Positions 18,122 to 56,847 of a stretch of 64,000 nt of DNA are shown here, one piece after another (the first letter of the stretch is position 1; every line of letters starts with the position of its first letter). This DNA comes from a virus, in IMG/VR virus record IMGVR_UViG_3300045988_126550, positions 1 through 64,000 of that record; one strand, written 5' to 3'. Under the pieces are notes generated by a model. The model was not told the origin of the DNA. It worked only from the letters and a program-made list of their open reading frames with translations, and made no database searches. A program made the translations under genes and the position numbers.

Positions 18122-19006
18122 CTACATATTCTTCTTTCTCTCTCTATATCTTTGTATTTCTAGCCTCTTTAATTCTCGCAAATGATCTCTTCTACATTGT
18201 TCGCATCTACAAGTTTCCGTAGCAAGAGGGCTTACTAAAAATCTTTTTCCACATTCAATACATTCAATTTCAACGTCACTAGATAACTCATAATCTGGGC
18301 GATGAATACTACAATACTTTGCTGAATTTGACCTAGCCTTAAACCATCTGCCACAAACATCGCATCTTTTATATCCACCATTTTTATAATTCAAAAATGC
18401 ATAAGCAAGTTCCAAATAATCATATTCATCAAGCGTAAGGACGACTTCGTCCTCATCATGATCTACAAAAGCGGCAGTCAAGGCATTATAACCTATACTG
18501 AAATTCTGTTTGAGTAATCCTTCCTTATATGCAAATCCAAAATACAAATCTCTATCTTTGGCTGGTATAACAACCCTTGCAAATTTAAATATTTCAGAAG
18601 TCTTTGCGTAAAATGTATCATTATCTCTTTGACTTTCGGCATTTTGATATTTTGCTAATGCTAAAATGACAAATGCAATTTTTTCTTTCCTTATATCATT
18701 TAAAGACATGATTTTGTCCATTTCTCTTTTTGTAATATTAATAGTATTTACATCTTTAATTTTATATTTATAAGCCTTATTAATATCCTTATTAATGGTA
18801 TTTATATACCCCTGATACATAAAACCATTATAATTTTGAGCCATAAAGTCAACAATTTTCCAAAATACATCATTCTTATCTGCAGGATTTAATTGTGTAT
18901 AATAAATTGCCGCATTCCAAATTGCCTGAGTTATACTAACCCCGTCAATATTTTTATCCTCTATAATGCTATAAATCCTACTTTTTTCATTAAAATTAAA
19001 TCTCAT
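18122..19006 (-). CDS. hypothetical protein, 294 aa, C-terminal Cys4-type Zn-ribbons plus a basic tail
   Basis: CDVCG..CSIH..CIECG..CRCEQC followed by RRDHLRELKRLEIQRYRERKK. Overlaps the stop of the RNAP-like gene by 11 nt. Confidence 0.6.
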   Translation of the reverse strand: MRFNFNEKSRIYSIIEDKNIDGVSITQAIWNAAIYYTQLNPADKNDVFWKIVDFMAQNYNGFMYQGYINTINKDINKAYKYKIKDVNTINITKREMDKIMSLNDIRKEKIAFVILALAKYQNAESQRDNDTFYAKTSEIFKFARVVIPAKDRDLYFGFAYKEGLLKQNFSIGYNALTAAFVDHDEDEVVLTLDEYDYLELAYAFLNYKNGGYKRCDVCGRWFKARSNSAKYCSIHRPDYELSSDVEIECIECGKRFLVSPLATETCRCEQCRRDHLRELKRLEIQRYRERKKNM

Positions 19007-21827
19007 CTATAATTTCACCTCCAATTCTAATAGTTTTATTAGAAAATTTCGTACCACAACAACAAAAATCTGCATTTTCACTCTTTTCTGGATATATAAG
19101 AGTATTATCATGTTTTTCTAACATATTTTTAATAATTTGAGTACCACAAACATCCCAAACTATAGTTTTACTCATTTTTCCAGTATAGCAAATATCTAAT
19201 AAAATATCACAAAGAGACTCTTCATTCGGGCAAATAGACGTCATATCTTCTATGAGAGTTTCTAGAAGTCTGTCTTTATCCTCTAATAATATCTTTCTTT
19301 CTTCTTCATTATTAATTTTTCTACTATTTAAAGTCTTCAAATTCATTAAATAATGCTCGCACAAACCTTTAATTTCTGCATAAGAGCTTCTTTTTACATT
19401 ATTTTTTGATTTATAAATACTATAGTCAAATTCTAATTCTTCACAAGAAAAATTTTCATCAAATTCTTCTTCTATTTTTCTACAAATGCGATTCATAGTA
19501 GAAGGAGACATATCAATAGGGCATTTTGCAGAACAATATTTAACAAATTTCGCCGCATCTTCACTTAAATTATCCATTTTTAGCATATCTTCAAACGAAA
19601 TGCCATATAGGCCAATTGATTTTGAATTGACTTCTTCAATAAATTTTTGATAATTAATTCTTTCTGTATCATAGTTATACATAAAGAAATACGGCTTTTT
19701 ATTTGCACAAATTGTTTGATTAAATGCTTTTTTCTCTTGAATTTCCTCAGAATCATCAGATTTTATAATATTTGCACCATATTGATACCATTCTTTTGGC
19801 ATCGGAATAGGTAAAATCCCCTTTGCTTTATCAATTTCTCTTTGCTGCAGTGCTTGACCACATTGAGTTCTATATCTTAATGTTTCATATTCTTTACTAT
19901 TTGGGGTATAATTTGCCATTAAACTTGTCATTTGTGTAATTTTATTTGTTATAGAGCCAATTTTACTGCCAAATCCAGCCTTATTTGAAGCAATTATATC
20001 CTCTTCTTTAACTACTTTTTTAGGAGCCTTTGTCTGTATGCAATTCAATGCAGGAAGATTAGTTTGTCTTCTTATCAACGACGCATTATTTGTTGTAAAT
20101 AATAAATCACCATCAAAATCAAAGCCATTTAATGCAGCTGGCATTGTATCCCATCCGTTTACAACTATACAAGTATCAATATATTGAAACCAATCAAGAG
20201 CTTTTTTATCTTTACATATATTTTGAGCAACTATAGAATGAGCATTACTCATTGGTGCTCTGAAACAAAGAACTCTATCTACACCTTCATCATACCAATA
20301 TTTACTATAAATTTCACCGGCCTTTAAAATTCCATGTGGTTCTAATCCAAACATACTTTCACAAAGAGCGTATAAATCTCCAGAAAGGATTTGGAAGTTT
20401 CCATGCAGATCCAAAACACCAATTTTAGCGTCTTTTATTCGTCTATTTATCATTTTTTTGATTTTTGAACGAATATAAGGATCATTTATAGCAATTTTAT
20501 CAATCATAAGCGCTTTTGCAATATTTTCAGCAAAAATTACATTTTTCTCGTTTAATCCCTTGCCACATAAATATGCAACGCTTTTTCTTGGATCTAACTC
20601 CATAATATCTTTAATTTCATTAACTGTTGGTGCAATAAGCTCATCTATATCATCATCTGTAAGATCTAAAGACTGTATAAATTGATAATTTAATTGTCTT
20701 ATATCATCATTTTCTTCCTCAGATGTTTTTGTAACCCTTAAAGTATAATGATTCGCAATACATTTTTCATAATAATCTTCCCATGAAGAATAACTGCCGC
20801 ACAACTTAAGCTGACTTTCAGTTAATATTAAATCAGCATCGCGTATATCTCTTTCTTTCCCCCAATAATCTTTAATTAAATACTTTTCTGGATGTTCTAC
20901 AGACGCACCAATAATTTCTTCTGCGAATCTAATAAAATCAAAAGTGAGAGCCATGCCTTTTGTAAACGCACAACGCATATTACATCCGCTCATTGTATGT
21001 TCTGAGTCTCCATTTAGCTCTCCATTCCACCTTTTAGATAAGTTGGGGAGCATCATTGAGCACCCATCCGACATATTATTTTCAAAATCTTCATTATGTT
21101 TCTCTGTTACTTTTGGCTCTACCGTTGGATCACTGTCATCTATTTCAATAAAATTCGTCTTAAAATGAACAACACAGTCTTTTACAACAATAATGCCTCC
21201 GGGAATATTACTTTCACGAGATCTAGGCCAGCTAACTGGAATTGATGCACTAGCGGCAAGTGATTCATAGGCTCCATACTTAGCAGGAGAGAGCTTTACA
21301 TCTGTATTCCTGCCATTTGCTATGCGTCTCTTTAACTCATCATGAATATTTACACTTTGCCCATTGTACTCAACGCATCTATCTGCGGCATATACAACAC
21401 TAGATGTTTTTACTCCATTGGTAGTGCAAATCAATCTTTTATATGCAACTCCATTTACTTTAAATCCTTTATTTGCTCTATCATAATCAGAATTTTTATC
21501 AAAAACCACACACAAATAATCCTTTTTGAACTGTAAATCATATAATTCTGTATATTTTTCTGAAACTTTTTTCTTGTTGTCATCACTATTTGGCTGTTTT
21601 TTAATTTCTTTTATGTCTTTTTTAATTTGTTTTGCTCTTGAATCATAATCCTCAGTTCCATTTAATTCATTAATCCAAGTTAAAATTTGTGAATCAGCCA
21701 AAGAAACAACAACCCCAGGAATTTTTCTTGCGTCTGACAATGGTAACTCTAATTCCCAATTATTTTGCTTGAGCAGACTTGAATTAATTTTATATATATA
21801 CTGTTGTGTTTTTTGCTGTTTTGCCAA
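18996..21827 (-). CDS. RdRP/YonO-like single-subunit RNA polymerase candidate (two-barrel type)
   Basis: Collinear motifs NMRCAFTKGMALTFD (cf. Q-I-R..G.KG of cellular RdRPs), FRAPMSNAHS (cf. R.P.lh), then about 55 aa later NGFDFDGDLLF (DxDGD metal site, cf. beta-prime NADFDGD). Size about 940 aa. Start uncertain: TTG 21827 sits 8 nt after GGAGG; the track start is 21842. Confidence 0.65.
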   Translation of the reverse strand: MAKQQKTQQYIYKINSSLLKQNNWELELPLSDARKIPGVVVSLADSQILTWINELNGTEDYDSRAKQIKKDIKEIKKQPNSDDNKKKVSEKYTELYDLQFKKDYLCVVFDKNSDYDRANKGFKVNGVAYKRLICTTNGVKTSSVVYAADRCVEYNGQSVNIHDELKRRIANGRNTDVKLSPAKYGAYESLAASASIPVSWPRSRESNIPGGIIVVKDCVVHFKTNFIEIDDSDPTVEPKVTEKHNEDFENNMSDGCSMMLPNLSKRWNGELNGDSEHTMSGCNMRCAFTKGMALTFDFIRFAEEIIGASVEHPEKYLIKDYWGKERDIRDADLILTESQLKLCGSYSSWEDYYEKCIANHYTLRVTKTSEEENDDIRQLNYQFIQSLDLTDDDIDELIAPTVNEIKDIMELDPRKSVAYLCGKGLNEKNVIFAENIAKALMIDKIAINDPYIRSKIKKMINRRIKDAKIGVLDLHGNFQILSGDLYALCESMFGLEPHGILKAGEIYSKYWYDEGVDRVLCFRAPMSNAHSIVAQNICKDKKALDWFQYIDTCIVVNGWDTMPAALNGFDFDGDLLFTTNNASLIRRQTNLPALNCIQTKAPKKVVKEEDIIASNKAGFGSKIGSITNKITQMTSLMANYTPNSKEYETLRYRTQCGQALQQREIDKAKGILPIPMPKEWYQYGANIIKSDDSEEIQEKKAFNQTICANKKPYFFMYNYDTERINYQKFIEEVNSKSIGLYGISFEDMLKMDNLSEDAAKFVKYCSAKCPIDMSPSTMNRICRKIEEEFDENFSCEELEFDYSIYKSKNNVKRSSYAEIKGLCEHYLMNLKTLNSRKINNEEERKILLEDKDRLLETLIEDMTSICPNEESLCDILLDICYTGKMSKTIVWDVCGTQIIKNMLEKHDNTLIYPEKSENADFCCCGTKFSNKTIRIGGEIIDEI

Positions 21828-21851
21828 ACGCACCACCTCCAAACCACAAAA

Positions 21852-25102: not shown

Positions 25103-25601
25103 CTATAATATCCTCCAAACTTGCAAATAGTAGTGATAGGTCTGGCTTAACCTTTTGTTCAAACTTGCAATGTTCCATATTGTTTAGCAGATTACATCCT
25201 GAACCTTCCAAAAAAATATTATGGTGTGTACATTCAGTGCAATTTTCTTTATTAGTATATTCAGCCATTTCCATACCTCCATCCATCTTCGCTCCACAAT
25301 TTGGACAGAATTTTGATAATACAAATTCATTATTACAATCCAATGTGGCTTCTTCATTGCAGTTAGAACATTCATATCCGGCAATTGGGTCACGCCCTGC
25401 AAATTCTGGATTCCAGCCCGTTACCTCACTTTCATAAAAAGGGATCCAAATCCCATGCACAACCGGCGTAACGTCGGTAGAGGGCGCATTTTTAATTCGC
25501 CAGATTGCGTCTTCTGTTCTATCTCTTTGGTATGGGTATTCGACAGATTTCAGCCATTCAAATTCTGCAAGCAGCGCTTCCCGATCTATATATTCAGGCA
25601 T
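25089..25601 (-). CDS. hypothetical Zn-ribbon protein, paralogue set member
   Basis: ATG 25601 preferred (MPEYIDREALL..); ..VTPVVHGIW.. and FCPNCGAKMDGG. Confidence 0.6.
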   Translation of the reverse strand: MPEYIDREALLAEFEWLKSVEYPYQRDRTEDAIWRIKNAPSTDVTPVVHGIWIPFYESEVTGWNPEFAGRDPIAGYECSNCNEEATLDCNNEFVLSKFCPNCGAKMDGGMEMAEYTNKENCTECTHHNIFLEGSGCNLLNNMEHCKFEQKVKPDLSLLFASLEDIIDATD

Positions 25602-25869
25602 TATATTCATCTCCATCCATTTTTGCGCCGCAATTAGGGCAGTATGGCGACCTTACTTTATTTTTTCTATTGCACCAAGCGTAATCTTCCTTGTATACTT
25701 TTTTCTGACAAACTGAGCAATACACTCCAGCATTTGCGCAATCAGCTAACGATATCCAATGTCCATGTCGTACCGGAGCAGCATCAGTTATAAATGAATT
25801 CATACAAGAATAGCAAACCTGTATACCTTCTGGAATAATTTTTCCGCAGCATACGCAACGATTTTCCAT
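25594..25869 (-). CDS. hypothetical Zn-ribbon protein, paralogue set member
   Basis: ..DAAPVRHGHW.. and YCPNCGAKMDGD; AAAGGAGG SD directly after motif copy 25884..25898. Confidence 0.6.
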   Translation of the reverse strand: MENRCVCCGKIIPEGIQVCYSCMNSFITDAAPVRHGHWISLADCANAGVYCSVCQKKVYKEDYAWCNRKNKVRSPYCPNCGAKMDGDEYNA

Positions 25870-25883
25870 ATTTAAATACCTCC

Positions 25884-25898
25884 TTTAATTTTGTATTG
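25884..25898 (-). promoter_or_regulatory. conserved intergenic motif copy
   Basis: Gene-strand CAATACAAAATTAAA followed by GGAGG. Confidence 0.7.
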
Positions 25899-25932
25899 TT
25901 ATTATAACACATTTTTCCAGTTTGTCAATGGG

Positions 25933-26241
25933 TTATAGTTCGTTATCTTCTGGTAATTCATAAAATTCATATCCATCATTTGTTTCTACTAAATAGCCAT
26001 ATTCAATAAGATCCGCAATAGCGTCATAATAAGACGACTTCGATAGCCCAGTTTCTTTCATGACATGTGTTCTGCGCAGAATTGGATTCCAGCCGTCATC
26101 ATTTTGCATGAAATAAGTATATAGATAGAATCCAGACTTTGTTAGTACACGCATAGCTTCTTTATTTGCCGCCACATTGGCTTTATAGTAATGATGATCC
26201 TCATCCATAATTGTCTTATTGATAAGGACTTTTTTCTCCAT
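25933..26241 (-). CDS. winged-helix DNA-binding protein candidate, 102 aa
   Basis: ..ETGLSKSSYYDAIADLIEYGYLVE.. HTH-plus-wing pattern. First gene of the minus arm, next to the iterons. Confidence 0.5.
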   Translation of the reverse strand: MEKKVLINKTIMDEDHHYYKANVAANKEAMRVLTKSGFYLYTYFMQNDDGWNPILRRTHVMKETGLSKSSYYDAIADLIEYGYLVETNDGYEFYELPEDNEL

Positions 26242-26255
26242 TGCACCACCCCCAA

Positions 26256-26270
26256 GTTAATTTTGTGTTG
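26256..26270 (-). promoter_or_regulatory. motif copy (variant CAACACAAAATTAAC)
   Basis: 5 nt downstream of the TATTAT -10, followed by a GGGGGTGG SD. Confidence 0.6.
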
Positions 26271-26272
26271 TA

Positions 26273-26301
26273 ATAATAGCACAAGGTTTTAATTTTGTCA
26301 A
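26273..26301 (-). promoter_or_regulatory. sigma-A-like promoter TTGACA-N17-TATTAT for the wHTH gene
   Basis: Gene strand TTGACAAAATTAAAACCTTGTGCTATTAT; the iterons begin 8 nt upstream of the -35. Confidence 0.55.
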
Positions 26302-26305
26302 GAGG

Positions 26306-26575
26306 GTGTGTCCCAATTTTCGGAATATAGTGTCCTAATTTTCGGAAAAATTATTCCAGAAAATAGGACGCTTAATATAATATATATTAATATAATAATT
26401 TAATATAATATAAATCACAAAAAACAAGATGGTATGGGCGCGGCGAGTGGTGGTTAAAGATAGTGTCCTATTTTTCGGAAAAAGTGTGTCCCATTTTTCG
26501 GAAAAAAAATTCCGAAATTTAGGACACTTAATATAATTATATTTAATATAAAAAATATTAATATAATAGGAGGGC
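26306..26575. repeat. iteron array: six copies of a ~17-bp repeat TGTCCYAWTTTTCGGAA in two [direct, direct, inverted] clusters, each followed by a ~45-bp A+T tract
   Basis: Copies at 26309-26325, 26331-26347, 26354-26371 (inverted), 26464-26480, 26487-26503, 26510-26526 (inverted). The following tracts CTTAATATAATATATATTAATATAATAATTTAATATAAT and CTTAATATAATTATATTTAATATAAAAAATATTAATATAAT are themselves related. Confidence 0.85.
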
Positions 26576-27343
26576 AAAAGAGAAATAGTTTGAATGGTAT
26601 TTGGGTTTGGTTGGGTATAGTTTATATGGACAGGTGTGGGAGATGGTTGAAAGCGTTCTGGTATATGATAGGCTGATTTTGCAATATGTGTGGTGTATAT
26701 ATTATATCAACCCTCTAGCGAGTTTTTGCCGACTCGTTTCACTTCGTCTTCAAAAAACGTCCCAGTCATGGGACTCTCGCTTTGTCTGGCTTGCTAAAGC
26801 AAACCATCCAAAATAAGATTTGAAACGGATTTTGGCAATGATTAGTTGGTGTGTAAATGTTTGTATAGTAATTGGACAGATATTTTTGATGAATTTTATA
26901 TATTCTGGATTGAATTATAAAGAAATTGTTGGTTAAATTAGCCGTTTTACAATTTTGATGCTGTAATAATTAAGAGAAAATTTATAGCAAAAGTTTAATA
27001 TATAGGTAATTATATGTTGTTATTTTACGATTCATATTGTTAATTTAATCTGATAAATGATTTGTTTTATAATTTATATAATGGATAATTTTGTATAAAG
27101 AGACGTGTAAAATGGGTTTGATAGTGGGAAATTATTAGAAAAGAGTGCTGTTTTATGTGGCAGTGGTCAACGATATTTAGATGATATTTAGGTAATATTT
27201 GACACAATAATAGTGAAAAAGTTTAGAGAAATTTTTCTGAGTTAGTGTATATGATAACCTCGTATACCCAACATTGAAAAAACCATTGCAAACGCTAGTT
27301 TTATGTACCCCGGATGCGTGATTACACGTCGAAAAAATCAATT

Positions 27344-27374
27344 TTCTCAAAATATCAATTTTGAGAAGTTTTTT
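27344..27374 (+). terminator. rho-independent terminator (10-bp perfect stem, loop ATCA, T6), potentially bidirectional
   Basis: TTCTCAAAAT-ATCA-ATTTTGAGAA-GTTTTTT, with an A-run upstream. Confidence 0.7.
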
Positions 27375-27385
27375 GCTTTTCTGGC

Positions 27386-27415
27386 TGTCAAAACACAAAA
27401 AAATTGTGCTATGTT
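27386..27415 (+). promoter_or_regulatory. candidate early promoter (TGTCAA-N18-TGcTATGTT, extended -10)
   Basis: Read directly; about 75-nt leader to ATG 27492. Confidence 0.35.
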
Positions 27416-27491
27416 GGTGGTGGGCAACGGCTCAGCGGTTGACTGAGTTTGTTAGCCTTAGCTACTTAACTGTAGCAGATTGGAGTTAATC

Positions 27492-27857
27492 ATGTTGAAA
27501 GTTACTTTGGCAAATGGTACTGTTATCGAGGCTTCTACCGTTGAAGAATTGGCTGCTGTTCAGTCTCTTCTTTCTTCTTCTGTTCCTGGTAAGCCTACCA
27601 GGACTACCGGAATGAGTGCCGCTGAAAAGTGGGAAAAGAGCAAGGCTGACAGAGCCGCTGAACGTGAGGCATTTTACAAGACACATAAATGTGTCAAGAC
27701 AGCTGACGAAAATAGGGCTATGGTCTATGAAGCTATGGGCTATGTTCCCAAGTCTGGAATGTACTTTGACAAGGCACTTTACAAGGCTACTGCAAAGAAA
27801 CTCGGCGTTCTCGGTAAGTCCGGTAAGGTTGTCGGCACTTATGAAGAGATCAAGTAA
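27492..27857 (+). CDS. hypothetical basic Lys/Ala-rich protein, 121 aa (first gene of the plus arm)
   Basis: Track ORF 27480..27857 (TTG). ATG 27492 preferred (GGAG SD 6 nt upstream). Confidence 0.65.
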   Translation: MLKVTLANGTVIEASTVEELAAVQSLLSSSVPGKPTRTTGMSAAEKWEKSKADRAAEREAFYKTHKCVKTADENRAMVYEAMGYVPKSGMYFDKALYKATAKKLGVLGKSGKVVGTYEEIK

Positions 27858-27875
27858 CGCGACCTGATCCCTATA

Positions 27876-27911
27876 GCCTCTCACCCTTCGGGGTGAGGGG
27901 CTTATTTTTTT
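27876..27911 (+). terminator. rho-independent terminator (11-bp GC-rich stem, TTCG loop, T-run)
   Basis: GCCTCTCACCC-TTCG-GGGTGAGGGGC-TTATTTTTTT. Confidence 0.85.
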
Positions 27912-27913
27912 GT

Positions 27914-27950
27914 GTGAACGGTTTTGTATTTTTTCAAGCCGTTCACTTTT
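27914..27950 (+). terminator. second hairpin (GTGAACGG..CCGTTCAC) followed by TTTT
   Basis: 8-bp stem, 17-nt loop; weaker than the first. Confidence 0.4.
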
Positions 27951-28132
27951 CTTATGTTCTCGTGTCTATGTGTTTTTGCATAGATGCGTTTTTATATATT
28001 TCACCGGGCTATGAGGTGTGAGTCCCCATAGCTTAACAAACAAACACCCAGTGTGAAACAGACGAGCATTATATGCTAGTCAATCTCGACGAGTGTGAAA
28101 CACGAGTCAATAATATTTAGGAGGTACAAATT

Positions 28133-37126: not shown

Positions 37127-38332
37127 ATGAAACTTTTGCTTAGACAGTTTGGTGACGAATGCTACGTATGGAAAAATGCGGAAATGAATGATGAAAAAAC
37201 ATTTATTGTGGATGGGAGAACTGTAAATCAGGGAAACGTCGTGTCTATTTATAGAGACAATAGAAATAAATTCGTCAAATGTTCGCATTGTGGCACTATT
37301 CTCAAGAATACGGACACAGAGATCAAAGAGCATAGGCTCATGAGCACAACTTCTACAACATGTTTTGGATGCCCAAACTTAAGAACATGTGAAGAAATTA
37401 CAAAGTCGATTAAATATGTGTTACAAGATGATGGTAAGTATATTGCAACGGTCAAAAAGGAAATGCAACTCAAGTGCCGTCAGGGTTGGGGTAGATTGTA
37501 CGACATCAATTCCGAAGATGCAAGAACTGGTTGTAAATATAGAGGATGTATTGATGCAACGATGAAAAGCATTCAGGATATTTTCACAGAGTGCCCCGGT
37601 ATTTTTGATGACATTATTACCATTGACTGTATTCTGGATACAAATTTCGAAGACAGAACTTCACATAGAAACGGCACGACATATAAGCTCAAGGGAAGAG
37701 ACAACATTGTGGCGGTTGGAACAGAATTAAAAAGAGGGCATACAACTTCATGTGGATGTTTGCGCAATGAAAAAATATCAAAAGCAAACAAAAAAGAAAA
37801 TGTGTTTGATTTAGATAGTGCGGAATATGCTATCGGATATACAGCGAAGGGAGAGGAATTTTGGTTTGATAAAGAAGATTATGATTTAGTAAAAAAATAT
37901 TGTTGGCATTATTATCAAGGATATGTAATAACAAACGGAGAAGACCATCATAAAATTTATTTGCATAGATTAGTTATGGGTGTAACGGATTGTAATGTAT
38001 GTGTTGATCATATTATTCACCCACCATATCCACAGCATAAAATAGACAACAGAAAGTCAAATTTAAGAATAACCACAAATCAACAAAATACAATGAATCG
38101 GTCTTTGAACAGAAATAATTCAAGTGGAGTAACTGGTGTTACATGGGACAAAAAGAACAACAATTGGAGAGCGTACATTAGATTTAATTGGAAGCTAATC
38201 CATCTTGGCAGTTTCATCAACAAAGAAGATGCTATAGCTGCTCGAAAAGCAGCAGAAGAAAAATATTTTGGCGAATACGCATACAAAGAAGAATTGAAAG
38301 GAGATAACAATGAGAGATTCAAAGAGAATTGA
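37127..38332 (+). CDS. HNH-AP2 homing endonuclease fused to an unrelated ~190-aa Cys-containing N-terminal region
   Basis: C-terminal YLHRLVMG..VDHI..DNRKSNLR (HNH) followed by SGVTGVTWDKKNNNWRAYIRF..HLGSF...EDAIAARKAAEEKYFGEY (AP2). Confidence 0.8.
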   Translation: MKLLLRQFGDECYVWKNAEMNDEKTFIVDGRTVNQGNVVSIYRDNRNKFVKCSHCGTILKNTDTEIKEHRLMSTTSTTCFGCPNLRTCEEITKSIKYVLQDDGKYIATVKKEMQLKCRQGWGRLYDINSEDARTGCKYRGCIDATMKSIQDIFTECPGIFDDIITIDCILDTNFEDRTSHRNGTTYKLKGRDNIVAVGTELKRGHTTSCGCLRNEKISKANKKENVFDLDSAEYAIGYTAKGEEFWFDKEDYDLVKKYCWHYYQGYVITNGEDHHKIYLHRLVMGVTDCNVCVDHIIHPPYPQHKIDNRKSNLRITTNQQNTMNRSLNRNNSSGVTGVTWDKKNNNWRAYIRFNWKLIHLGSFINKEDAIAARKAAEEKYFGEYAYKEELKGDNNERFKEN

Positions 38333-44553: not shown

Positions 44554-45534
44554 ATGAACGGAAGACTTGAAGCTGAATTAAATAAACAAAAGTTAATTAA
44601 AGACAAACTTAAATATTTGCCTAAAGTTTTCGAAGAATTTTATTATTACATGGAGGAAGATGATAGATCATATAATACTATTGAGCATTATATTGATTAT
44701 AATGTAGAATTTATGAACTATATTACAAACGGGAATAAAGATGAATATTATTATAAAAATGTAAATTCAACGCACATCAAACAATTTATTAGTTCACAAC
44801 GTACTAAAGAAATTAATGGAGAGCTGGTTAGAATCGGTGATAGCATTTTGGCTACAAAATTTTCAGCTATTAAAAAATTCTTTTCATTTTTAAGTGATTC
44901 TAATTATATTGATGAAAATCCGGTAGAAGGAGTTCGAAGACCAAAAGTTAAAACAGATCATACGGTTACATTTCTTGAAGAAAACGAAATCAATAAGTTG
45001 TTTTCAAACATTAAAACAATGGCAAATGAAAGATTATTAAATAGAGATTTATGTATGTTTTCTTTGTTTATTTCTACTGGTCTTAGAAAATCTGCATTAG
45101 TGCAGATCAATGTAGAAGATATCAATTTTAAGACAAATACAATTAAGGTAATTGAAAAAGGGAGAAAGGAAAGGTTAATTAGTTTTGGCGGAAATATGAG
45201 ACAGCTTTTATTAAACTGGATTCAAGATAGAAGAGATTATTTTAAAGTAGAAGAAAGTGGGCCATTATTTGTTTCTCAATGGAACAATAGAATGTCTACA
45301 AAAAATGTAGAAATGTTGTTGGCGAAGTATCTAGATGGCGTGAGCGATAAACATATCACAGTTCATAAACTTAGAGCAACTGCTGCAACTCAAATGGCAG
45401 CACATGATGTTCCAGTTCAGGTTATAAAGGAAATGTTGAATCATGAAAATGTTTCCACAACAATGAGATATGTTGCTGCAATTGACAGCCAGAAGCAAGA
45501 GGCAGTTAATATTCTTGATAGCATCGTGAAATAA
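44554..45534 (+). CDS. tyrosine recombinase/integrase (XerC/D-like)
   Basis: ..TGLRKSAL.. (Arg I) and ..HKLRATAATQMA..V..LNHENVSTTMRYV (H-x-x-R ... Y). Confidence 0.8.
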   Translation: MNGRLEAELNKQKLIKDKLKYLPKVFEEFYYYMEEDDRSYNTIEHYIDYNVEFMNYITNGNKDEYYYKNVNSTHIKQFISSQRTKEINGELVRIGDSILATKFSAIKKFFSFLSDSNYIDENPVEGVRRPKVKTDHTVTFLEENEINKLFSNIKTMANERLLNRDLCMFSLFISTGLRKSALVQINVEDINFKTNTIKVIEKGRKERLISFGGNMRQLLLNWIQDRRDYFKVEESGPLFVSQWNNRMSTKNVEMLLAKYLDGVSDKHITVHKLRATAATQMAAHDVPVQVIKEMLNHENVSTTMRYVAAIDSQKQEAVNILDSIVK

Positions 45535-45536
45535 TC

Positions 45537-45565
45537 TTGACTAAATTAATATTGTATTGTATAAT
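45537..45565 (+). promoter_or_regulatory. sigma-A-like promoter TTGACT-N17-TATAAT with an inverted motif copy (45544-45559) in the spacer
   Basis: TTGACTAAATTAATATTGTATTGTATAAT. Confidence 0.6.
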
Positions 45566-45591: not shown

Positions 45592-46479
45592 ATGTTTGAC
45601 AAAGAACAAAAAGAGGCATTTATAAAAGAATACTTGAAGAGTAAGGTAGTCGCAAAAACTAGCCTTTATGCGGTTTTCAGAAAGACAGAACCATTTGAAG
45701 AGAAGCTAAATAAGGATGCATCACAATTTACAAGGGAAGAAATATTGGATATGTTTGCGCAATTCAGAGCGAAATCTGTTAATTCGTTGCTAAATTACGC
45801 TATCATATTGAAGCATTATTCACGTTTAATGCGTGGAGAAAATGAATACGAGTCAATTGCAAAAGCAGATGTTGTAGATCTTATTGATAAAAGTGGAAGC
45901 ATATTATTAAGTAGAGAGGAACTTGATGATATTGAAGCACAACTTTTAAATTGGAGTGATAAAGCAATTGTTGAACTTCTTTGGGATGGTGTTTCAAGGC
46001 AAAGCATGAAAGACATATATGCCGTTTCTGAAGAATGTGTACATGGCGATATTCTTCGTATAAATGGAAAAGAATTTCAAATTAGCAAACGTTTAAAAGA
46101 ATTGTTGCCGAAGGCATTTGCTGAGACGGAAATCATGAGCTATGGAAATACAATGCGTATAATTGAGGTAGAAGGTAAAGGAAGGCTTTATAAAGCAAGA
46201 GCAAATACTAGGAATGTCGATTCTAATGACCAAAAATTCCGTTACTTTTATCGCCGTATTCAAATATTTAGAGAGTATTTGGACATTCCGGGTTTAACTA
46301 TGAAGAATCTGAGTGCATCAGGAATGTTCCATTATCTTCAACTTGGCATAAAGGAAACAGGTTTGACACTTAGAGAGTTTTTAAAAACAGCAAAAGGAAA
46401 AGAGTTAGCGATGCAATACGATTTTGCTGAAGACTATTATGTTGATACGATAGCACAGAAATACGAGCAATATATTTAA
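45592..46479 (+). CDS. hypothetical protein, 295 aa
   Basis: Track ORF; GGGAGTG SD. Only vague resemblance to recombinase core-binding domains. Confidence 0.6.
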   Translation: MFDKEQKEAFIKEYLKSKVVAKTSLYAVFRKTEPFEEKLNKDASQFTREEILDMFAQFRAKSVNSLLNYAIILKHYSRLMRGENEYESIAKADVVDLIDKSGSILLSREELDDIEAQLLNWSDKAIVELLWDGVSRQSMKDIYAVSEECVHGDILRINGKEFQISKRLKELLPKAFAETEIMSYGNTMRIIEVEGKGRLYKARANTRNVDSNDQKFRYFYRRIQIFREYLDIPGLTMKNLSASGMFHYLQLGIKETGLTLREFLKTAKGKELAMQYDFAEDYYVDTIAQKYEQYI

Positions 46480-46507
46480 TTATGTTGCTCATTATTCAAA
46501 TACTTAC

Positions 46508-46522
46508 AGTACAAAATTAATT
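46508..46522 (+). promoter_or_regulatory. conserved intergenic motif copy
   Basis: AGTACAAAATTAATT. Here it is not SD-proximal; it is followed by promoter 46552..46580. Confidence 0.6.
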
Positions 46523-46551
46523 AGAAATATATAGCAGGGGAACATTAGTTC

Positions 46552-46580
46552 TTGCATATTGTGGGTAAATATGTTAGAAT
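46552..46580 (+). promoter_or_regulatory. sigma-A-like promoter TTGCAT-N17-TAGAAT
   Basis: Read directly, upstream of 46618..46869. Confidence 0.5.
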
Positions 46581-46617
46581 ATTTGTATAATTTTAGTAGC
46601 AAAAAGGGGAGTAAATC

Positions 46618-46869
46618 ATGGGACAAATACTTGAGGCATTAAGAGAAACAAAAGATAAAAATGTAGACATCTATACAGAGCATAAACTCTTCGGCAAGCA
46701 ACATATTCAAATGAAGTTTATACCAGAAACAGAAGCGGGATGGGGGTTCCGTGCACGTGGACAAGCAATCTATATTAATAAAGATGATGTTGTTTCATAT
46801 GATATTAACAACAGAAAGGTGGAAATTAAGGGAAAAATGATGAGTATAAAAATCATTTTAAGGTCTTGA
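46618..46869 (+). CDS. hypothetical protein, 83 aa
   Basis: AAGGGGAG SD. Confidence 0.6.
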   Translation: MGQILEALRETKDKNVDIYTEHKLFGKQHIQMKFIPETEAGWGFRARGQAIYINKDDVVSYDINNRKVEIKGKMMSIKIILRS

Positions 46870-46893
46870 CAAATTGGAAATATGTGGTATAAT
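46866..46893 (+). promoter_or_regulatory. sigma-A-like promoter TTGACA-N16-TGgTATAAT (extended -10)
   Basis: Read directly. The -35 overlaps the stop of 46618..46869. Confidence 0.65.
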
Positions 46894-46972
46894 AAGGGCA
46901 CGAGATAGGGGGTCTGGTGCCCTTGTAACTAACATATTTGCAGAAAGGGGGAAGCTGGATGTCGGTTTGGGC

Positions 46973-47185
46973 ATGAGCGTAAGTATGAGTGAGAAATATT
47001 ATTATCAGTGCCAACAATGCGGAGAAATACATGAAACACGTTTTGAATATAAAACAGAAGATGCGTTTGTTGATTTGTGGTGTGACGAATGTGAAACAGA
47101 AACTTCACAATTATATGTTGGAATGGATTTATTGGAAAAATATTTGTATATGAATCCAAATTTCGATGAGCGATTTTATTTATGA
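46973..47185 (+). CDS. Zn-ribbon hypothetical protein, ~70 aa
   Basis: Track 46874..47185 would start inside the promoter. ATG 46973 is preferred, coupled by ATGA to a 5-codon uORF (46959-46976) that has the GGGGG SD. CQQCG..CDEC. Confidence 0.5.
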   Translation: MSVSMSEKYYYQCQQCGEIHETRFEYKTEDAFVDLWCDECETETSQLYVGMDLLEKYLYMNPNFDERFYL

Positions 47186-47191
47186 TTAACA

Positions 47192-47206
47192 CAATACAAA
47201 ATTAAT
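47192..47206 (+). promoter_or_regulatory. conserved intergenic motif copy
   Basis: CAATACAAAATTAAT, then TTAAAAGGAG. Confidence 0.7.
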
Positions 47207-47224
47207 TTAAAAGGAGATATAATT

Positions 47225-48490: not shown

Positions 48491-50104
48491 ATGACATCAG
48501 GGGGAGTACATTTGGAAGAGGAAAAGACATATAAAGAATTTATACAGAATATTTTAGATACTCGTGGAAGATTTAATTGCGGAGATGGGTATCATGAGCG
48601 GCATCATATCTTACCTAAGTGTCTTGGTGGCGGAAATGAGGAAGAGAATCTAATTGATCTTTATGCTAAAGAACACTTTATAGCGCATAAGTTATTGGCA
48701 TTAGAAAATCCTGATAATAATGGGTTACAATATGCTTGGTGGGCTATGTCAAATATGAAGACTGAATTTACAAAAGAGAGATATCACGCATCCCCAGAGG
48801 AATATGAAGAAGCCAAAACAGCATTTAGCATAATGATGAGGGAAAAATCATGTATGCCTGTTGTTCAATTAGATTTACTTGGAAATTATATTTCAAAATA
48901 TAAAAGTTGTGCAGAAGCAGAGTTTATTCTTGGTATAGATAGCAGATATATTGTTGATTGTAAAAATCACAAAAGAGGACATGCTTGTGGTTTTATATTT
49001 ATTTCAGAAGATGAGTATGATTCAAACAAAAATTATAGATATAAATTTCCAGGAAGAGAAGTTGTTCAATTCGCCATTGATGGAAGTTATATTGCAACAT
49101 TTATTAATCCTCCTACTGCAGCAAGAGAAATTGGAGTTAATGTTGTGTCTATTAGGAGTTGTTGCTGTGAACAAGGTAATACTGCTGGTGGATTTAGATG
49201 GATGTATTTAGATGAATGGGATGGTAAAAAACTAAGTCCAATTGAATATGACTATAAAAATCAAAGGGCCATAGTCGATATAAAAAGAGAAACAATTCAA
49301 GTAAATAGATATGATAATAGAGGTAGATATATTTGCACATATGATAGTGTAAACGATGCAGCATTTGATGCAGGATGTGCATCTACAAATATTAGTCGCT
49401 GTTGTAGAGAAATTCATAAAATGATAGATAATTGCTATTGGAGATATACAAACGAATGTGACGGAGCAAATGATATTATTATAGAAACATATAAATATAA
49501 TCAACATAAGCCAGTGATTCAATTATCATTAGATGGAGAGTTTATTGCGGTATATAATTCTATGGTAGAGGCGGAACGGATCGCAGGAGTACCGGCAGGA
49601 TGTATTTCTGGATGCTGTTGTGGTACGCAATTTACAGCAGGTAATTATTTATGGGTATTAGCATCAGAATACGATAAAGGAAATATCCCAGTATATCATC
49701 CACGACAAACAGTTGCCGTTATTCAACTTGATAAAAACGGAACATTTGTTAGAAAATATAATTCAATAAAAGAAGCACAAGACGCAACCGGTGTCAATAG
49801 TTGCAATATTATTATATGCTGTCAAAAATCAAATTTATCGGCAGGTGGTTTTCAATGGATATATGAAAAAGATTACGATCCTAATAAAATATATCCGCCA
49901 GTTAAAGTTCACGAAAGAAGAGTTGTTAAACTAACAATTGATATGAAGTATATAGAAACATTTGATAGTGTTAGTTTGGCTGCTGCTTCTGTTGGGAAAA
50001 AATCTCCGGCAATTATCAGAAATTGCAAGCATCCACATCTTACGGCGTATGGCTTTAAATGGATGTACGAAGAAGATTATATAAAATTACTTACAGACAC
50101 TTGA
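48491..50104 (+). CDS. HNH homing endonuclease with six tandem IENR1/NUMOD1-like HTH repeats
   Basis: N-terminal ~85 aa are a close paralogue of 8628..9530 (HERHHILPKCLGGGNEEENLIDLYAKEHFIAH). Six ~50-aa repeats end in ..AGGF(R/Q)W(M/I)Y. Start uncertain (TTG 48512 possible). Confidence 0.85.
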   Translation: MTSGGVHLEEEKTYKEFIQNILDTRGRFNCGDGYHERHHILPKCLGGGNEEENLIDLYAKEHFIAHKLLALENPDNNGLQYAWWAMSNMKTEFTKERYHASPEEYEEAKTAFSIMMREKSCMPVVQLDLLGNYISKYKSCAEAEFILGIDSRYIVDCKNHKRGHACGFIFISEDEYDSNKNYRYKFPGREVVQFAIDGSYIATFINPPTAAREIGVNVVSIRSCCCEQGNTAGGFRWMYLDEWDGKKLSPIEYDYKNQRAIVDIKRETIQVNRYDNRGRYICTYDSVNDAAFDAGCASTNISRCCREIHKMIDNCYWRYTNECDGANDIIIETYKYNQHKPVIQLSLDGEFIAVYNSMVEAERIAGVPAGCISGCCCGTQFTAGNYLWVLASEYDKGNIPVYHPRQTVAVIQLDKNGTFVRKYNSIKEAQDATGVNSCNIIICCQKSNLSAGGFQWIYEKDYDPNKIYPPVKVHERRVVKLTIDMKYIETFDSVSLAAASVGKKSPAIIRNCKHPHLTAYGFKWMYEEDYIKLLTDT

Positions 50105-51415: not shown

Positions 51416-51922
51416 ATGAGGCAGGTTAAATGTCGTAACTGTGGCACATTTATTAATAGAGACTCTGCTATTAGCGTCCAAAATGGAAAGGCAAAACTAT
51501 GGTATTGCGATTCTTCGTGTTTAGAGCAAGCAACAAAAAATGCGTTAGAAGCTGCAAAGAAAAAAGAAGAATATGACTCTATTTTTGAAGAGACGAAAGT
51601 TATATTTGGATATGATTTTCAGGGATATAGTCTTCTAAAAAAAGAAGTTCAAAACTGGGAAAAACTCGCGAATAGAAATAAGATATTAAATTATCTTAAA
51701 GAAAACGAAAATTATTTATCTTCTATCTTGGCAAAAAAAGAATTTGCAAATGACTATAATAGAATAAGATATTATAGCGTTATTGTATCTTCAAAATTGC
51801 ACGATTATCAAGGTAAAACAGAAGAGAAAGTTGTCCCGAAGGTTGATATGATTTTTTACGAACCAAGCCAAACGAGCAACAACAAACGTAGATCATTGGA
51901 GGACTTGGAGGATGAATTTTAA
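51416..51922 (+). CDS. hypothetical protein with N-terminal Zn-ribbon, 168 aa (helicase-associated by position)
   Basis: Track 51317..51922; ATG 51416 preferred (AAGGAG SD). CRNCG..CDSSC. Confidence 0.55.
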   Translation: MRQVKCRNCGTFINRDSAISVQNGKAKLWYCDSSCLEQATKNALEAAKKKEEYDSIFEETKVIFGYDFQGYSLLKKEVQNWEKLANRNKILNYLKENENYLSSILAKKEFANDYNRIRYYSVIVSSKLHDYQGKTEEKVVPKVDMIFYEPSQTSNNKRRSLEDLEDEF

Positions 51923-56845: not shown

Positions 56846-56847
56846 GA

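What the first reader, a model, noticed from the sequence alone, without database searches (positions are those of the whole stretch)
25933..26575. Iteron array with A+T-rich tracts at the divergence point, next to a winged-helix gene: candidate origin or master operator region
SEEN: Six copies of TGTCCYAWTTTTCGGAA lie at 26309, 26331, 26354 (inverted), 26464, 26487 and 26510 (inverted). They form two [direct, direct, inverted] clusters. Each cluster is followed by a related ~45-bp tract that is almost pure A+T. The array begins 8 nt upstream of the -35 of the TTGACA-N17-TATTAT promoter that drives 25933..26241. That product has an HTH-plus-wing pattern (ETGLSKSSYYDAIADLIEYGYLVE). The track ORF across the array is low-complexity and looks spurious. 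KNOWN: Iterons next to an A+T-rich unwinding element and an adjacent initiator gene are the standard layout of theta-type plasmid and phage origins. Multiple operators upstream of a divergent junction are the layout of lysis/lysogeny or early/late switches. INFERENCE: The wHTH protein binds these repeats, and the site is either the replication origin or the main regulatory switch between the two arms.
Basis: partly seen in the sequence, partly recalled or inferred. Interest (0 to 1): 0.65.

Follow-up and report, generated by a model that had tools for sequence, protein, structure and literature searches.

The report
Phage iteron array: probable replication origin
A cluster of repeated protein-binding sites beside two stretches of easily melted DNA, next to a small DNA-binding protein related to the origin-binding part of phage and plasmid replication initiators, is most likely the replication origin of a large uncultured gut-type phage, which is a familiar design seen here in a phage group whose origin is not known.

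Summary
Six copies of TGTCCYAWTTTTCGGAA lie at the stated coordinates (7 matches in the window against 0.88 expected). They form two [direct, direct, inverted] modules. Each module abuts a pure A+T run of 44 or 41 nt. These are the two longest A+T runs and the two least stable 40-mers in the 64 kb.

Each repeat is a quasi-palindrome (KTCC-N8-GGAM), which suits a dimer site. The cassette [AT tract]-[inverted copy]-[T-rich spacer]-[2-3 direct copies]-[7-9 nt]-[-35 TTGACA]-[wHTH gene] recurs in at least five diverged lineages of related metagenomic phages. The repeat's inner bases change together with the protein's recognition helix.

The 102-aa product is a confident winged helix (pLDDT 90). Its closest relatives are the N-terminal domains of 200-400-aa HTH_36 proteins, which match PHROG replication-initiator families. 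TubR is the best solved-structure match, and that match is weak.

Best reading, with confidence about 0.45: a lambda-ori/O-like or plasmid oriV-Rep-like cassette that also autoregulates its own promoter. Against it, the protein is a bare DNA-binding domain and no helicase-recruiting part was found.

The "master switch between arms" reading is poorly supported. A second consensus promoter directly downstream has no sites. No TubZ gene accompanies the protein. I rate it a new member of a known kind, of moderate interest.

The parts
26309..26325 (-). Repeat 1 (promoter-proximal). Reads TTCCGAAAATTGGGACA on the minus strand and ends 7 nt upstream of the -35.
26331..26347 (-). Repeat 2, TTCCGAAAATTAGGACA. 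It lies 22 nt from repeat 1.
26354..26370 (+). Repeat 3, the inverted and degenerate copy (TTCCAGAAAATAGGACG on the plus strand). It abuts AT tract 1.
26372..26415 (.). AT tract 1: 44 nt of pure A+T with 3 copies of TTAATATAAT. It is the least stable 40-mer of the window and a candidate DNA-unwinding element.
26464..26480 (-). Repeat 4, TTCCGAAAAATAGGACA.
26487..26503 (-). Repeat 5, TTCCGAAAAATGGGACA. With repeat 6 it forms a 40-bp palindrome around an A/T spacer.
   Evidence: (I7)
26510..26526 (+). Repeat 6, the inverted copy (TTCCGAAATTTAGGACA). It abuts AT tract 2. This AT-tract-adjacent copy is the best conserved one across lineages (GTGTCCTAATTyynGGAM).
26528..26568 (.). AT tract 2: 41 nt of pure A+T with 2 exact TTAATATAAT and 1 variant. 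It is the second least stable 40-mer of the window.
26273..26301 (-). Sigma-A-type promoter of the wHTH gene, TTGACA-N17-TATTAT with an extended -10 TG.
   Evidence: conserved in relatives, (columns 1880-1915)
26258..26271 (-). Leader element ACAACACAAAATTA, a copy of the dispersed ACAATACAAAATTA element. It starts 1 nt after the -10.
25933..26241 (-). Gene for a 102-aa winged-helix protein, a stand-alone HTH_36-type domain like an initiator N-terminal domain. It is the presumed binder of the repeats.
25901..25928 (-). Second promoter, TTGACA-N16-TATAAT with TG (12/12 consensus), 5 nt after the wHTH stop codon. No repeat lies nearby.
26759..26774 (.). Perfect palindrome GTCCCAGTCATGGGAC. It could be a seventh site of the generalised motif. 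On the minus strand it is followed by T6, so it could instead be an intrinsic terminator. Conserved in close and more distant relatives.
26580..26700 (.). Strongly strand-skewed noncoding stretch: 41 G against 5 C on the plus strand, so CA-rich in the wHTH direction. A comparably CA-rich stretch lies upstream of the array in relatives and upstream of yonP-yonO in SPbeta.
27230..27311 (-). Block conserved in all relatives compared (GGGGTACAnAAAAC...TATACACTrACTnAnAAA). Function unknown.

Best explanation
The array is the cis-acting binding field of the adjacent 102-aa winged-helix protein. The cassette is most likely the phage's replication origin, built like lambda ori/O or a plasmid oriV-rep unit.

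Proposed mechanism:
1. A dimer of the protein binds each 16-17-bp quasi-palindrome. The half-sites TCC and GGA are 11 bp apart centre to centre, which is one helical turn.
2. Sites 22-23 bp apart lie on roughly the same face of the helix. Three dimers per module can therefore assemble side by side, and the two modules (156 nt apart) can pair.
3. The resulting nucleoprotein complex strains the pure A+T tract that directly abuts the inverted copy of each module, so it opens.
4. The phage DnaB-like helicase (51922-53502) and primase (55805-56821) are then loaded. How they are recruited is unknown, because the protein has no C-terminal domain.
5. The promoter-proximal site, centred near -52 of a near-consensus sigma-A promoter, makes the protein's synthesis self-limiting.

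Shown here: the repeats, their dyad form, spacing and enrichment; the AT tracts and their extreme instability; conservation of the cassette; co-variation of repeat and recognition helix; the fold of the protein and its family affinities; the GC-skew minimum.

Inferred, not shown: binding, dimer stoichiometry, unwinding, helicase loading and autoregulation.
For: DNA features.
- The repeats are far above chance and confined to this locus.
- The AT tracts are the two longest A+T runs and the two least stable 40-mers of 64 kb.
- The cumulative GC-skew minimum falls at ~26300, with the sign change at the array.

Conservation.
- The architecture AT tract / inverted copy / T-rich spacer / 2-3 direct copies / 7-9 nt / -35 / wHTH gene recurs in relatives whose proteins are 52-70% identical. 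Their repeat variants are lineage-specific.
- Recognition-helix variants track repeat classes.
- Copy number varies between near-identical genomes: 2 direct copies here and 4 in IMGVR 106160. This is typical of iteron arrays.

Protein.
- A profile of the family finds 1480 relatives. Many are 200-400 aa with this domain at the N-terminus. Several pass the Pfam HTH_36 cutoff and hit PHROG families labelled replication initiation, O-like or DnaD-like loader, with E-values down to 8.5e-12.
- The close family members hit the same families directly and consistently: phrog_186 in 11/12 and phrog_270 in 10/12. The window protein itself scores E = 0.003-0.005.
- Foldseek against viral models gives TM 0.6-0.72 to N-terminal domains of such proteins. 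These include ones annotated as RepA-like initiator, replisome organizer and lambda GpO N-terminal.
- HTH_36 Rep proteins are described in plasmids (PMC3832669), and HTH_36 proteins occur in the replication regions of Stx phages (PMC8951638).

Other.
- In a related phage (L052) the same position holds a different array: an AT-rich 20-mer repeated 2.5 times plus 3 dyad repeats. It lies in front of 237- and 241-aa HTH_36 proteins.
- No other initiator-like protein was detected in the window.
Against: - The protein is only a DNA-binding domain. No ORF in the window matches the C-terminal parts of the long homologues, so no helicase-recruiting part is in view.
- The direct match of the window protein to initiator families is below significance (E ~3e-3). 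PHROG names are transferred annotations.
- The long homologues P0034 and P0191 sit among small early genes, not in replication modules, and have no upstream array.
- The replication genes lie 21-36 kb away.
- There are two AT tracts rather than one, and no DnaA boxes.
- The GC-skew switch coincides with the change of gene orientation. The flanking noncoding DNA has a skew (+0.4 to +0.67) too strong to be a simple replication signature.
- The fixed position next to the -35 would be explained equally well by pure transcriptional control.
Confidence: 0.45

Rival explanations
1. Purely transcriptional operator array. The wHTH protein is an early regulator that binds the sites to repress or activate its own promoter, and perhaps transcription crossing the region. 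The site has no role in replication. The AT tracts serve as bendable or UP-like DNA that helps the complex form.
For: - The proximal site keeps a 7-9-nt offset from the -35 in all lineages.
- The inverted and direct pair forms a classic palindromic operator (I7).
- The protein is the size of a regulator.
- The general fold matches include MarR, GntR and CodY-type regulators.
- The long homologues are not found in replication modules.
Against: - The promoter is near-consensus with an extended -10, and no site overlaps its core elements.
- A second consensus promoter 5 nt after the gene, feeding the same arm, has no site. The array therefore controls little beyond the wHTH gene itself.
- Copy number varies between near-identical genomes, which is unusual for a tuned switch.
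- The extreme, conserved AT tracts fused to the inverted copy are not explained.
- The best family matches are to initiators, not regulators.
Confidence: 0.25
2. Centromere-like segrosome. The protein is a TubR-type centromere-binding protein and the split array is a tubC-like centromere that also represses the promoter. This would be a remnant or variant of the type III partition system of plasmid prophages such as Clostridium phage c-st.
For: - The top six Foldseek PDB hits are all TubR: pBtoxis and pBM400, E 0.016-0.09, 24-25% identity for pBtoxis.
- Sequence profiles give TubR as the best or second-best PDB match.
- The family HMM picks out c-st TubR as the only extra hit among six-frame ORFs of the c-st, SPbeta and PMBT24 regions (E 0.0034).
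- In c-st, tubC-tubR lies at the head of the same arm that carries the YonO-like RNA polymerase.
- Known tubC sites lie upstream of tubR, are split into blocks, and repress the promoter (PMC6009700).
Against: - No tubZ follows the gene in the window or in any of the lineages examined.
- There is no BLAST hit to c-st TubZ, and no tubulin or ParA signature in any window ORF.
- All TubR similarities are statistically weak (TM about 0.5). Matches to initiator-type viral proteins are better (TM 0.6-0.72).
- c-st tubC repeats have an 11-bp period and are not dyads.
- No relative was found in representative bacterial genomes, so a plasmid-prophage lifestyle is unproven.
Confidence: 0.12
3. Packaging (pac) recognition site. 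The repeats are bound by a small terminase-like DNA-recognition protein and mark where headful packaging starts.
For: - In SPbeta-like phages the genome opening point lies in the ~1-kb noncoding region between yonR and yonP, directly upstream of yonO. This is the positionally equivalent region (bioRxiv 10.1101/2021.11.22.469490).
- Several assemblies end in or beside the array: IMGVR 112501 and 141329, and L026, L035, L038.
Against: - Other contigs read straight through the array, for example IMGVR 107099 and the 160-kb ENA contig. Contig ends at repeated, extremely AT-rich DNA are expected from assembly alone.
- The SPbeta region has no comparable repeat array.
- The terminase gene is 13 kb away.
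- The protein's affinities are with initiators and TubR, not with small terminase subunits.
Confidence: 0.06
4. Sites for a tyrosine-recombinase-fold protein. They would be either operators of the MrpR-like protein (45592-46479), making the repeats an SPBRE analogue, or a recombination site for the integrase (44554-45534). The [direct, direct, inverted] layout resembles FRT.
For: - The window encodes an MrpR_N_CB-positive protein and a true Phage_integrase-family protein.
- Copies 2+3 and 5+6 are inverted arms around a 6-8-nt spacer.
- MrpR binds a repeated element in SPbeta, including at the yonP promoter (PMC10516654).
Against: - SPBRE is dispersed over about ten promoter regions (PMC10516654). 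This motif occurs at one locus only in 64 kb, and exact-pattern scans of the ~160-kb relatives found it only at the array.
- Each arm is itself a dyad, and copy number varies.
- The repeats co-vary with the adjacent wHTH helix.
- The recombinase genes are 18 kb away.
Confidence: 0.05

Closest known systems
Bacteriophage lambda ori with O protein (lambdoid iteron origin)
   Same: - Several binding sites that each have internal dyad symmetry and are each presumed to take a dimer.
- Sites spaced about two helical turns apart, directly beside an A+T-rich unwinding stretch.
- The binding protein's winged-helix domain belongs to the same broad group as the O-like or replisome-organizer N-terminal domains.
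   Different: - Lambda ori lies inside the O gene. Here the array is upstream of the gene and adjoins its promoter.
- O has a C-terminal domain that recruits P-DnaB. This protein is 102 aa with no such domain.
- Here there are two modules, each with an inverted copy and its own AT tract.
Iteron-controlled theta plasmid replicons (pPS10, P1 oriR/repA, RK2 oriV/TrfA, and HTH_36-type Rep modules of Paracoccus plasmids)
   Same: - The cassette order is AT-rich region, iterons, rep promoter, rep gene.
- The iterons are 17 bp at 22-23-bp spacing, as in RK2 (my recollection).
- An inverted copy near the promoter suggests autorepression.
- Iteron copy number is variable.
- HTH_36 domains occur in Rep proteins (PMC3832669).
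   Different: - Plasmid Rep proteins have two winged-helix domains or further domains and are 250-350 aa.
- No DnaA boxes are present here.
- The element sits in a ~160-kb tailed-phage genome with its own helicase and primase.
TubR-tubC of type III (TubZRC) partition systems: pBtoxis, pBM400, Clostridium phage c-st
   Same: - A small winged-helix protein encoded just downstream of a split array of repeats that adjoins its promoter.
- TubR is the best solved-structure match.
- The position relative to the YonO-like polymerase arm is the same as in c-st.
   Different: - No TubZ GTPase and no TubY.
- The repeats are 16-17-bp dyads at 22-23 bp, not short direct repeats with an 11-12-bp period (PMC6009700).
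- The similarity is weak (E >= 0.016).
SPbeta yonR-yonP intergenic region (pac / genome opening point, with an MrpR-bound SPBRE at PyonP)
   Same: - A noncoding region of about 1 kb at the head of the arm that carries the YonO-type RNA polymerase.
- Strongly strand-skewed composition, CA-rich in the direction of that arm.
   Different: SPbeta has no comparable dyad-repeat array, no pure-AT tracts of this kind and no wHTH homologue there.

Membership tests
Iteron-type replication origin with adjacent initiator (lambda ori/O; plasmid oriV-Rep) | Three or more repeated initiator-binding sites in helical register | tested here: met
   Six 17-mers plus a seventh palindrome, with spacings of 22, 23, 23 and 23 nt. 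The window holds 7 matches against 0.88 expected.
Iteron-type replication origin with adjacent initiator (lambda ori/O; plasmid oriV-Rep) | A+T-rich, easily unwound element directly beside the iterons | tested here: met
   The 44- and 41-nt pure A+T runs are the two least stable 40-mers and the two longest A+T runs of the window. The junction GGACAC-TTAA is conserved in relatives.
Iteron-type replication origin with adjacent initiator (lambda ori/O; plasmid oriV-Rep) | The adjacent gene encodes a protein homologous to known initiators' origin-binding domain | tested here: inconclusive
   Direct hits to PHROG initiator families are consistent but weak (E 1e-4 to 5e-3). The transitive link through 200-400-aa HTH_36 proteins is strong. 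Viral fold matches reach TM 0.6-0.72. The family labels are transferred annotations.
Iteron-type replication origin with adjacent initiator (lambda ori/O; plasmid oriV-Rep) | The initiator carries, or is partnered with, a helicase- or loader-recruiting part | tested here: not met
   The protein is 102 aa and a single domain. No window ORF matches the C-terminal parts of the long homologues. The neighbouring ORFs are zinc-ribbon proteins or have no family match.
Iteron-type replication origin with adjacent initiator (lambda ori/O; plasmid oriV-Rep) | Replication starts there, or the fragment supports replication | not testable with these tools
   Only the GC-skew minimum at ~26300 is available, and it is confounded by gene orientation.
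Type III partition system (TubZRC) | TubR-type winged-helix centromere-binding protein | tested here: inconclusive
   The top six PDB fold hits are TubR, with E 0.016-0.09 and TM about 0.5. The profile E-value is 0.25-0.35. c-st TubR scores E 0.0034 in a small database.
Type III partition system (TubZRC) | Centromere of repeats in two or more blocks upstream of tubR, adjoining its promoter | tested here: met
   Two modules lie upstream of the gene, and the proximal site is 7 nt from the -35. The layout matches the description in PMC6009700. The repeat type differs.
Type III partition system (TubZRC) | tubZ (tubulin-like GTPase) in an operon with tubR | tested here: not met
   None lies downstream in the window or in any related locus. 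There is no BLAST hit to c-st TubZ and no GGGTGxG signature. The ~100 kb of genome outside the window could not be searched.
SPbeta MrpR-SPBRE master-repressor system | MrpR-like protein (tyrosine-recombinase fold) encoded by the phage | tested here: met
   The product of 45592-46479 matches MrpR_N_CB with 48.8 bits against a cutoff of 27.
SPbeta MrpR-SPBRE master-repressor system | Recognition element dispersed over many promoter regions of the phage | tested here: not met
   The 17-mer and its generalised form are confined to this one region. SPBRE is found at about ten promoters (PMC10516654).
Tyrosine-recombinase core site (FRT/loxP/dif-like) | Two inverted arms around a 6-8-bp crossover spacer, functionally linked to a recombinase | tested here: inconclusive
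   The geometry is present (I7: 18-nt arms with a 6-nt gap). However, each arm is itself a dyad, the recombinase genes are 18 kb away, and copy number varies.

The most novel reading that the evidence does not exclude
A minimal, single-domain origin-binding protein. A 102-aa winged helix with no helicase-recruiting domain nucleates origin opening on its own array, and recruitment of the phage helicase is handled by an unrecognised partner or by transcription or R-loop formation across the strongly G-skewed flanking DNA. A further possibility is that the same TubR-like complex acts both as origin and as a positioning or centromere element without a TubZ motor. Either version would define the so far unidentified origin and initiator of the SPbeta / c-st-related phages that carry YonO-type RNA polymerases.
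Probability: 0.15. Interest if true: 0.6.

Novelty: new member of a known kind. Interest (0 to 1): 0.4.

Why it matters
To my knowledge the replication origin and initiator of the large Firmicute phages related to SPbeta and c-st, which carry a YonO-type single-chain RNA polymerase, have not been identified. The papers read here map only packaging, lysogeny control and partition. This cassette is a concrete candidate that can be cloned and is conserved across at least five lineages of uncultured relatives. Its natural repeat and recognition-helix variants amount to a ready-made specificity series.

If it is the origin, it would also show that a bare 100-aa winged helix of the initiator type can serve as the origin-recognition subunit. 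If it is not, it is an ordinary autoregulated DNA-binding protein with an unusually elaborate operator.

Tried and rejected
- DNA similarity to deposited phages: none for 25800-27600. tblastn of the wHTH protein and of the long homologues P0034 and P0048 against deposited phages found nothing. P0024 against plasmids gave one unannotated hit.
- Rfam on 25500-28000: only a chance miRNA-like match.
- DnaA boxes: not enriched, and none in the region.
- Pfam and NCBIfam on the protein family: only sub-threshold HTH matches.
- CodY-box resemblance of the window's repeat (AATTTTCGGAAAAAT against the CodY consensus AATTTTCWGAAAATT as I recall it): rejected. Relatives keep only TTCC..GGAC, and their inner bases are not CodY-like.
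- TubZ hunt. BLAST of c-st TubZ, TubR and TubY against the window found nothing. Signature motifs were absent. A scan of viral contigs with c-st TubZ found only c-st relatives.
- SPbeta YonP against the wHTH family: no homology. The SPbeta intergenic region has no comparable array.
- Search for a competing origin beside the replication genes (46480-47224). That stretch turned out to hold small ORFs and a promoter. Its single motif match (46747) lies in coding sequence and looks like chance.
- Source names for the long homologues: none on record.
- PDB sequence searches with P0034 and P0224: nothing.
- Relatives in GTDB representative genomes: none, so the host and lifestyle remain unknown.
- A guess at an SPBRE-like sequence in SPbeta (ACAAATACAAATAAT): not enriched.
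Full report
**What the window is.** The 64 kb is part of a tailed-phage genome of about 160 kb.
- The minus-strand arm (688-26241) holds the portal, the large terminase, an exonuclease, ClpP, PhoH and a 948-aa ORF (18996-21842). That ORF matches Pfam RdRP and, by tblastn, the YonO-type single-chain RNA polymerases of Clostridium phage c-st (36% identity), Enterocloster phages and SPbeta.
- The plus-strand arm (from 27480) holds small early genes, a tyrosine integrase, an MrpR-like protein and an SPbeta-like replication set: AAA_24, a DnaB-like helicase, a primase and a RecJ-like nuclease.
- Near-identical genomes are IMG/VR contigs of 156-166 kb from one sample.
- No DNA-level relative exists among deposited phages, and none in GTDB representative genomes. 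The host is unknown.

**The observation.** It is confirmed in every particular.
- The six 17-mers are at the stated positions. The window holds 7 matches against 0.88 expected, and no shuffle reached 7.
- They form two modules 156 nt apart.
- Each module abuts a pure A+T run, 26372-26415 (44 nt) and 26528-26568 (41 nt). These are the two longest A+T runs in the window (the next is 25 nt) and its two least stable 40-bp duplexes, more than 4 sd from the mean.
- The decamer TTAATATAAT occurs five times in these tracts and once elsewhere.
- The promoter TTGACA-N17-TATTAT, with an extended -10 TG, is at 26301-26273 on the minus strand. The first repeat starts 7 nt beyond it.

- Read in the direction of the gene, each repeat is TTCC-N8-GGACA. 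This is a quasi-palindrome whose TCC and GGA half-sites are 11 bp apart centre to centre. The generalised form KTCC-N8-GGAM occurs 7 times in the 1.2-kb noncoding region and twice in the other 62.8 kb.
- The seventh copy is a perfect palindrome at 26759-26774. On the minus strand it is followed by T6, so it may instead be a terminator.
- Direct copies are 22-23 nt apart. The inverted copy and its neighbour form a 40-bp palindrome around an A/T spacer.
- A second 12/12 consensus promoter (25928-25901, minus strand) starts 5 nt after the wHTH stop codon and has no repeat near it.
- The rightward arm has its own weaker promoter at about 27386-27415, read from the sequence. An A/T-rich hairpin followed by a T-run precedes it.
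- The noncoding DNA to the right of the array is very G-rich on the plus strand, with skew +0.25 to +0.67. The cumulative skew minimum is at about 26300.

**Comparative evidence.** The 102-aa protein has 18 homologues of 52-99% identity, all metagenomic.
- I fetched their contigs. In every case with enough upstream sequence there is a noncoding region of about 1-1.2 kb with the same cassette: AT tract, inverted copy, T-rich 6-8-nt spacer, two or three direct copies, 7-9 nt, TTGACA-N17-TATnnT, the leader ACAATACAAAATTA, an RBS and the gene.
- TCC and GGAC never change. The inner bases are lineage-specific:

| Lineage | Repeat | Recognition helix |
|---|---|---|
| Window | TTCCGAAAAWTRGGACA | SKSSYY-D-AIADL |
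| P0008 | TTCCGTAAAATRGGACA | SKTSYY-A-AIADL |
| P0006 | TTCCCA-N4/5-GGGAC (6-10 copies) | SKSAYY-R-ALDEL |
| P0012, P0015, P0017 | TTCCAA...GGGACA | SKSSYY-L-ALQEL |

- P0012 and P0015/17 share both the helix and the repeat class, although they have diverged elsewhere. This is the pattern expected if the adjacent protein reads the repeats. It is correlation across few lineages, not proof.
- Among near-identical genomes the array and about 330 nt to its right are conserved, while the rest of the noncoding region and the first rightward gene are replaced. One genome has four direct copies where the window has two.
- Several assemblies break in or beside the array and others read through it. Repeats and extreme A+T content explain this without invoking physical genome ends.

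**The protein.**
- With 12 close sequences the AlphaFold2 model was mediocre (pLDDT 69). With 59 sequences, including remote family members, it is confident (pLDDT 90). It has four helices and a beta-hairpin wing.
- Pfam and NCBIfam give only sub-threshold HTH matches.
- A profile search of 1.84 billion representative proteins found 1480 relatives, 302 of them at E <= 1e-10. Many are 200-400 aa with this domain at the N-terminus, and a few have two tandem copies.
- Ten of the long ones were scanned. Several pass the Pfam HTH_36 cutoff. Most hit PHROG families named replication initiation protein, replication initiation O-like or DnaD-like helicase loader, over the region that includes the winged helix (E down to 8.5e-12).
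- The twelve close family members hit the same PHROG families directly and consistently: phrog_186 in 11/12, phrog_270 in 10/12, phrog_19658 in 8/12. For the window protein the four best hits are all such families, but at E 0.003-0.1.
- Foldseek against viral models gives its best matches (E from 2.6e-4, TM 0.6-0.72, full-length coverage) to N-terminal domains of 215-340-aa phage HTH proteins. Some of these are annotated as RepA-like initiator, replisome organizer, lambda GpO N-terminal or RepL.
- Against solved structures the top six hits are all TubR, the centromere-binding protein of type III partition systems, but weakly (E 0.016-0.09, TM about 0.5). Sequence profiles agree at E 0.25-0.35.
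- HTH_36 domains are reported in plasmid Rep proteins (PMC3832669) and in proteins of Stx-phage replication regions (PMC8951638).

**A related cassette with a long protein.** In L052 the head of the equivalent arm follows a 1.8-kb noncoding gap. This contig shares the arm's Thg1-like gene with the P0015 and P0017 lineages. Its layout is a CA-rich stretch, then 2.5 copies of an AT-rich 20-mer, then three 42-nt repeats each holding the dyad TACCGT-N10-ACGGTA, then TTGACA-N17-TATTAT. Two HTH_36-type genes of 237 and 241 aa follow. The architecture is therefore older than the particular repeat sequence, and in some relatives it goes with a full-length protein.

**Weighing the readings.**
- *Origin.* This reading accounts for the most features at once: dyad iterons in phase, an extreme AT tract fused to the array, copy-number variation, initiator-type family affinities, the skew minimum, and the absence of any other recognisable initiator in the window. 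Its weak points:
  - The protein is only a DNA-binding domain, and no partner was found.
  - The direct family match is sub-significant.
  - The long homologues P0034 and P0191 sit among early genes rather than replication genes.
  - The replication genes are 21-36 kb away.
  - The skew signal is confounded by gene orientation.
- *Autoregulation.* This is likely under any reading, because the proximal site keeps its distance from the -35 in all lineages.
- *Master switch between the arms.* This is unlikely. The same arm has a second site-free consensus promoter just downstream. The rightward promoter is far away and has no site. In some relatives the far-side gene is co-oriented.
- *TubR-like centromere.* The layout, the c-st synteny and the PDB hits suggest it. 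However, a defining feature, tubZ next to tubR, was tested and not met in the window and in all relatives.
- *pac site.* The SPbeta analogy suggests it, since the genome opening point lies between yonR and yonP (bioRxiv 10.1101/2021.11.22.469490). Nothing tested here supports it.
- *MrpR-like or recombinase site.* This is disfavoured, because the motif is confined to one locus whereas SPBRE is dispersed (PMC10516654).

**Verdict.** The feature is real, conserved and functional. It is most probably an origin-type iteron and AT cassette bound and autoregulated by the adjacent stand-alone winged helix. My confidence is 0.45 for the origin claim and about 0.75 for the narrower claim that the adjacent protein binds the repeats and regulates its own promoter. 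It is a new member of a known kind. The unusual points are the bare-domain protein and the duplicated module. Interest is moderate, at 0.4.

Noticed in passing
window, 30 sites, e.g. 25886-25899(-), 26258-26271(-), 47191-47204(+), 56847-56860(+): The dispersed element ACAATACAAAATTA(A) occurs 30 times (up to 1 mismatch) against 0.56 expected. Every copy but one (45547-45560, minus strand) is co-oriented with the genes of its arm, and most lie just 5' of a ribosome-binding site. Eight copies start 1 nt after a sigma-A-like -10. In four or five copies TTGACA overlaps or directly precedes the element and a -10 follows. About 18 have no sigma-A-like promoter. The element is conserved in the relatives' leaders but was not found in the c-st or PMBT24 regions fetched. 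It could be the promoter or start site of the YonO-like polymerase, whose promoter is still undefined (PMC5467207), an operator of the MrpR-like repressor, or an RNA-processing or translation signal.
   Followed up: partly
window 18996-21842 (-): A 948-aa ORF matches Pfam RdRP (PF05183, 2.5e-14). It is homologous to the YonO-type single-chain, two-barrel RNA polymerases of c-st (36% identity), Enterocloster phages and SPbeta. This places the phage in that little-studied group.
   Followed up: partly
window 45592-46479 (+) and 44554-45534 (+): An MrpR-like protein (MrpR_N_CB 1e-12; the catalytic domain scores only weakly) lies next to a true Phage_integrase-family recombinase. This suggests SPbeta-style lysogeny control. 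Its DNA target in this phage is unknown.
   Followed up: partly
window 27230-27311 (-): A block conserved in all relatives compared, GGGGTACAnAAAAC...TATACACTrACTnAnAAA. It is kept even where the neighbouring gene differs. No convincing sigma-A promoter or ORF explains it.
   Followed up: no
window 26740-26870 (-): A conserved hairpin cluster: GGTTTGC..GCAAGCC, then GTCCCATGACTGGGAC followed by T6, then CGAGT..ACTCG. The RNA fold z-score is -3.6, and the changes in close relatives fall only in the loops. An extended -10, TGATATAAT, follows at 26709-26701(-). It may be the 3' end of a leftward noncoding RNA followed by a promoter that reads into the array.
   Followed up: partly
window 26400-27300: The noncoding DNA has a very strong GC skew, up to +0.67 on the plus strand, with 41 G against 5 C in 26580-26700. 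A similarly CA-rich stretch, read in the direction of the polymerase arm, lies upstream of yonP-yonO in SPbeta and in L037 and L052. The skew is too strong to be a plain replication signature. A rightward transcript across it would be G-rich and prone to R-loop formation.
   Followed up: no
L026-L031, L036 (upstream of the wHTH gene); window 37127-38332, 48491-50104, 53578-55017, 62686-63438: Homing endonucleases are frequent. In the P0012, P0015 and P0017 lineages an HNH/NUMOD4 gene is inserted between the promoter and leader and the wHTH gene. P0007, P0010 and P0011 carry a NUMOD-like N-terminal extension, probably a fusion or a start-site artefact. The window itself has at least four HNH or NUMOD-type genes.
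   Followed up: no
L041 4539-4581 and 4629-4671: Two 43-nt direct repeats lie inside the gene of the 262-aa HTH_36 homologue P0034, just after its winged-helix domain. This recalls origins located inside lambda-O-type genes. There are only two copies, so it could equally be a repeat in the protein.
   Followed up: no
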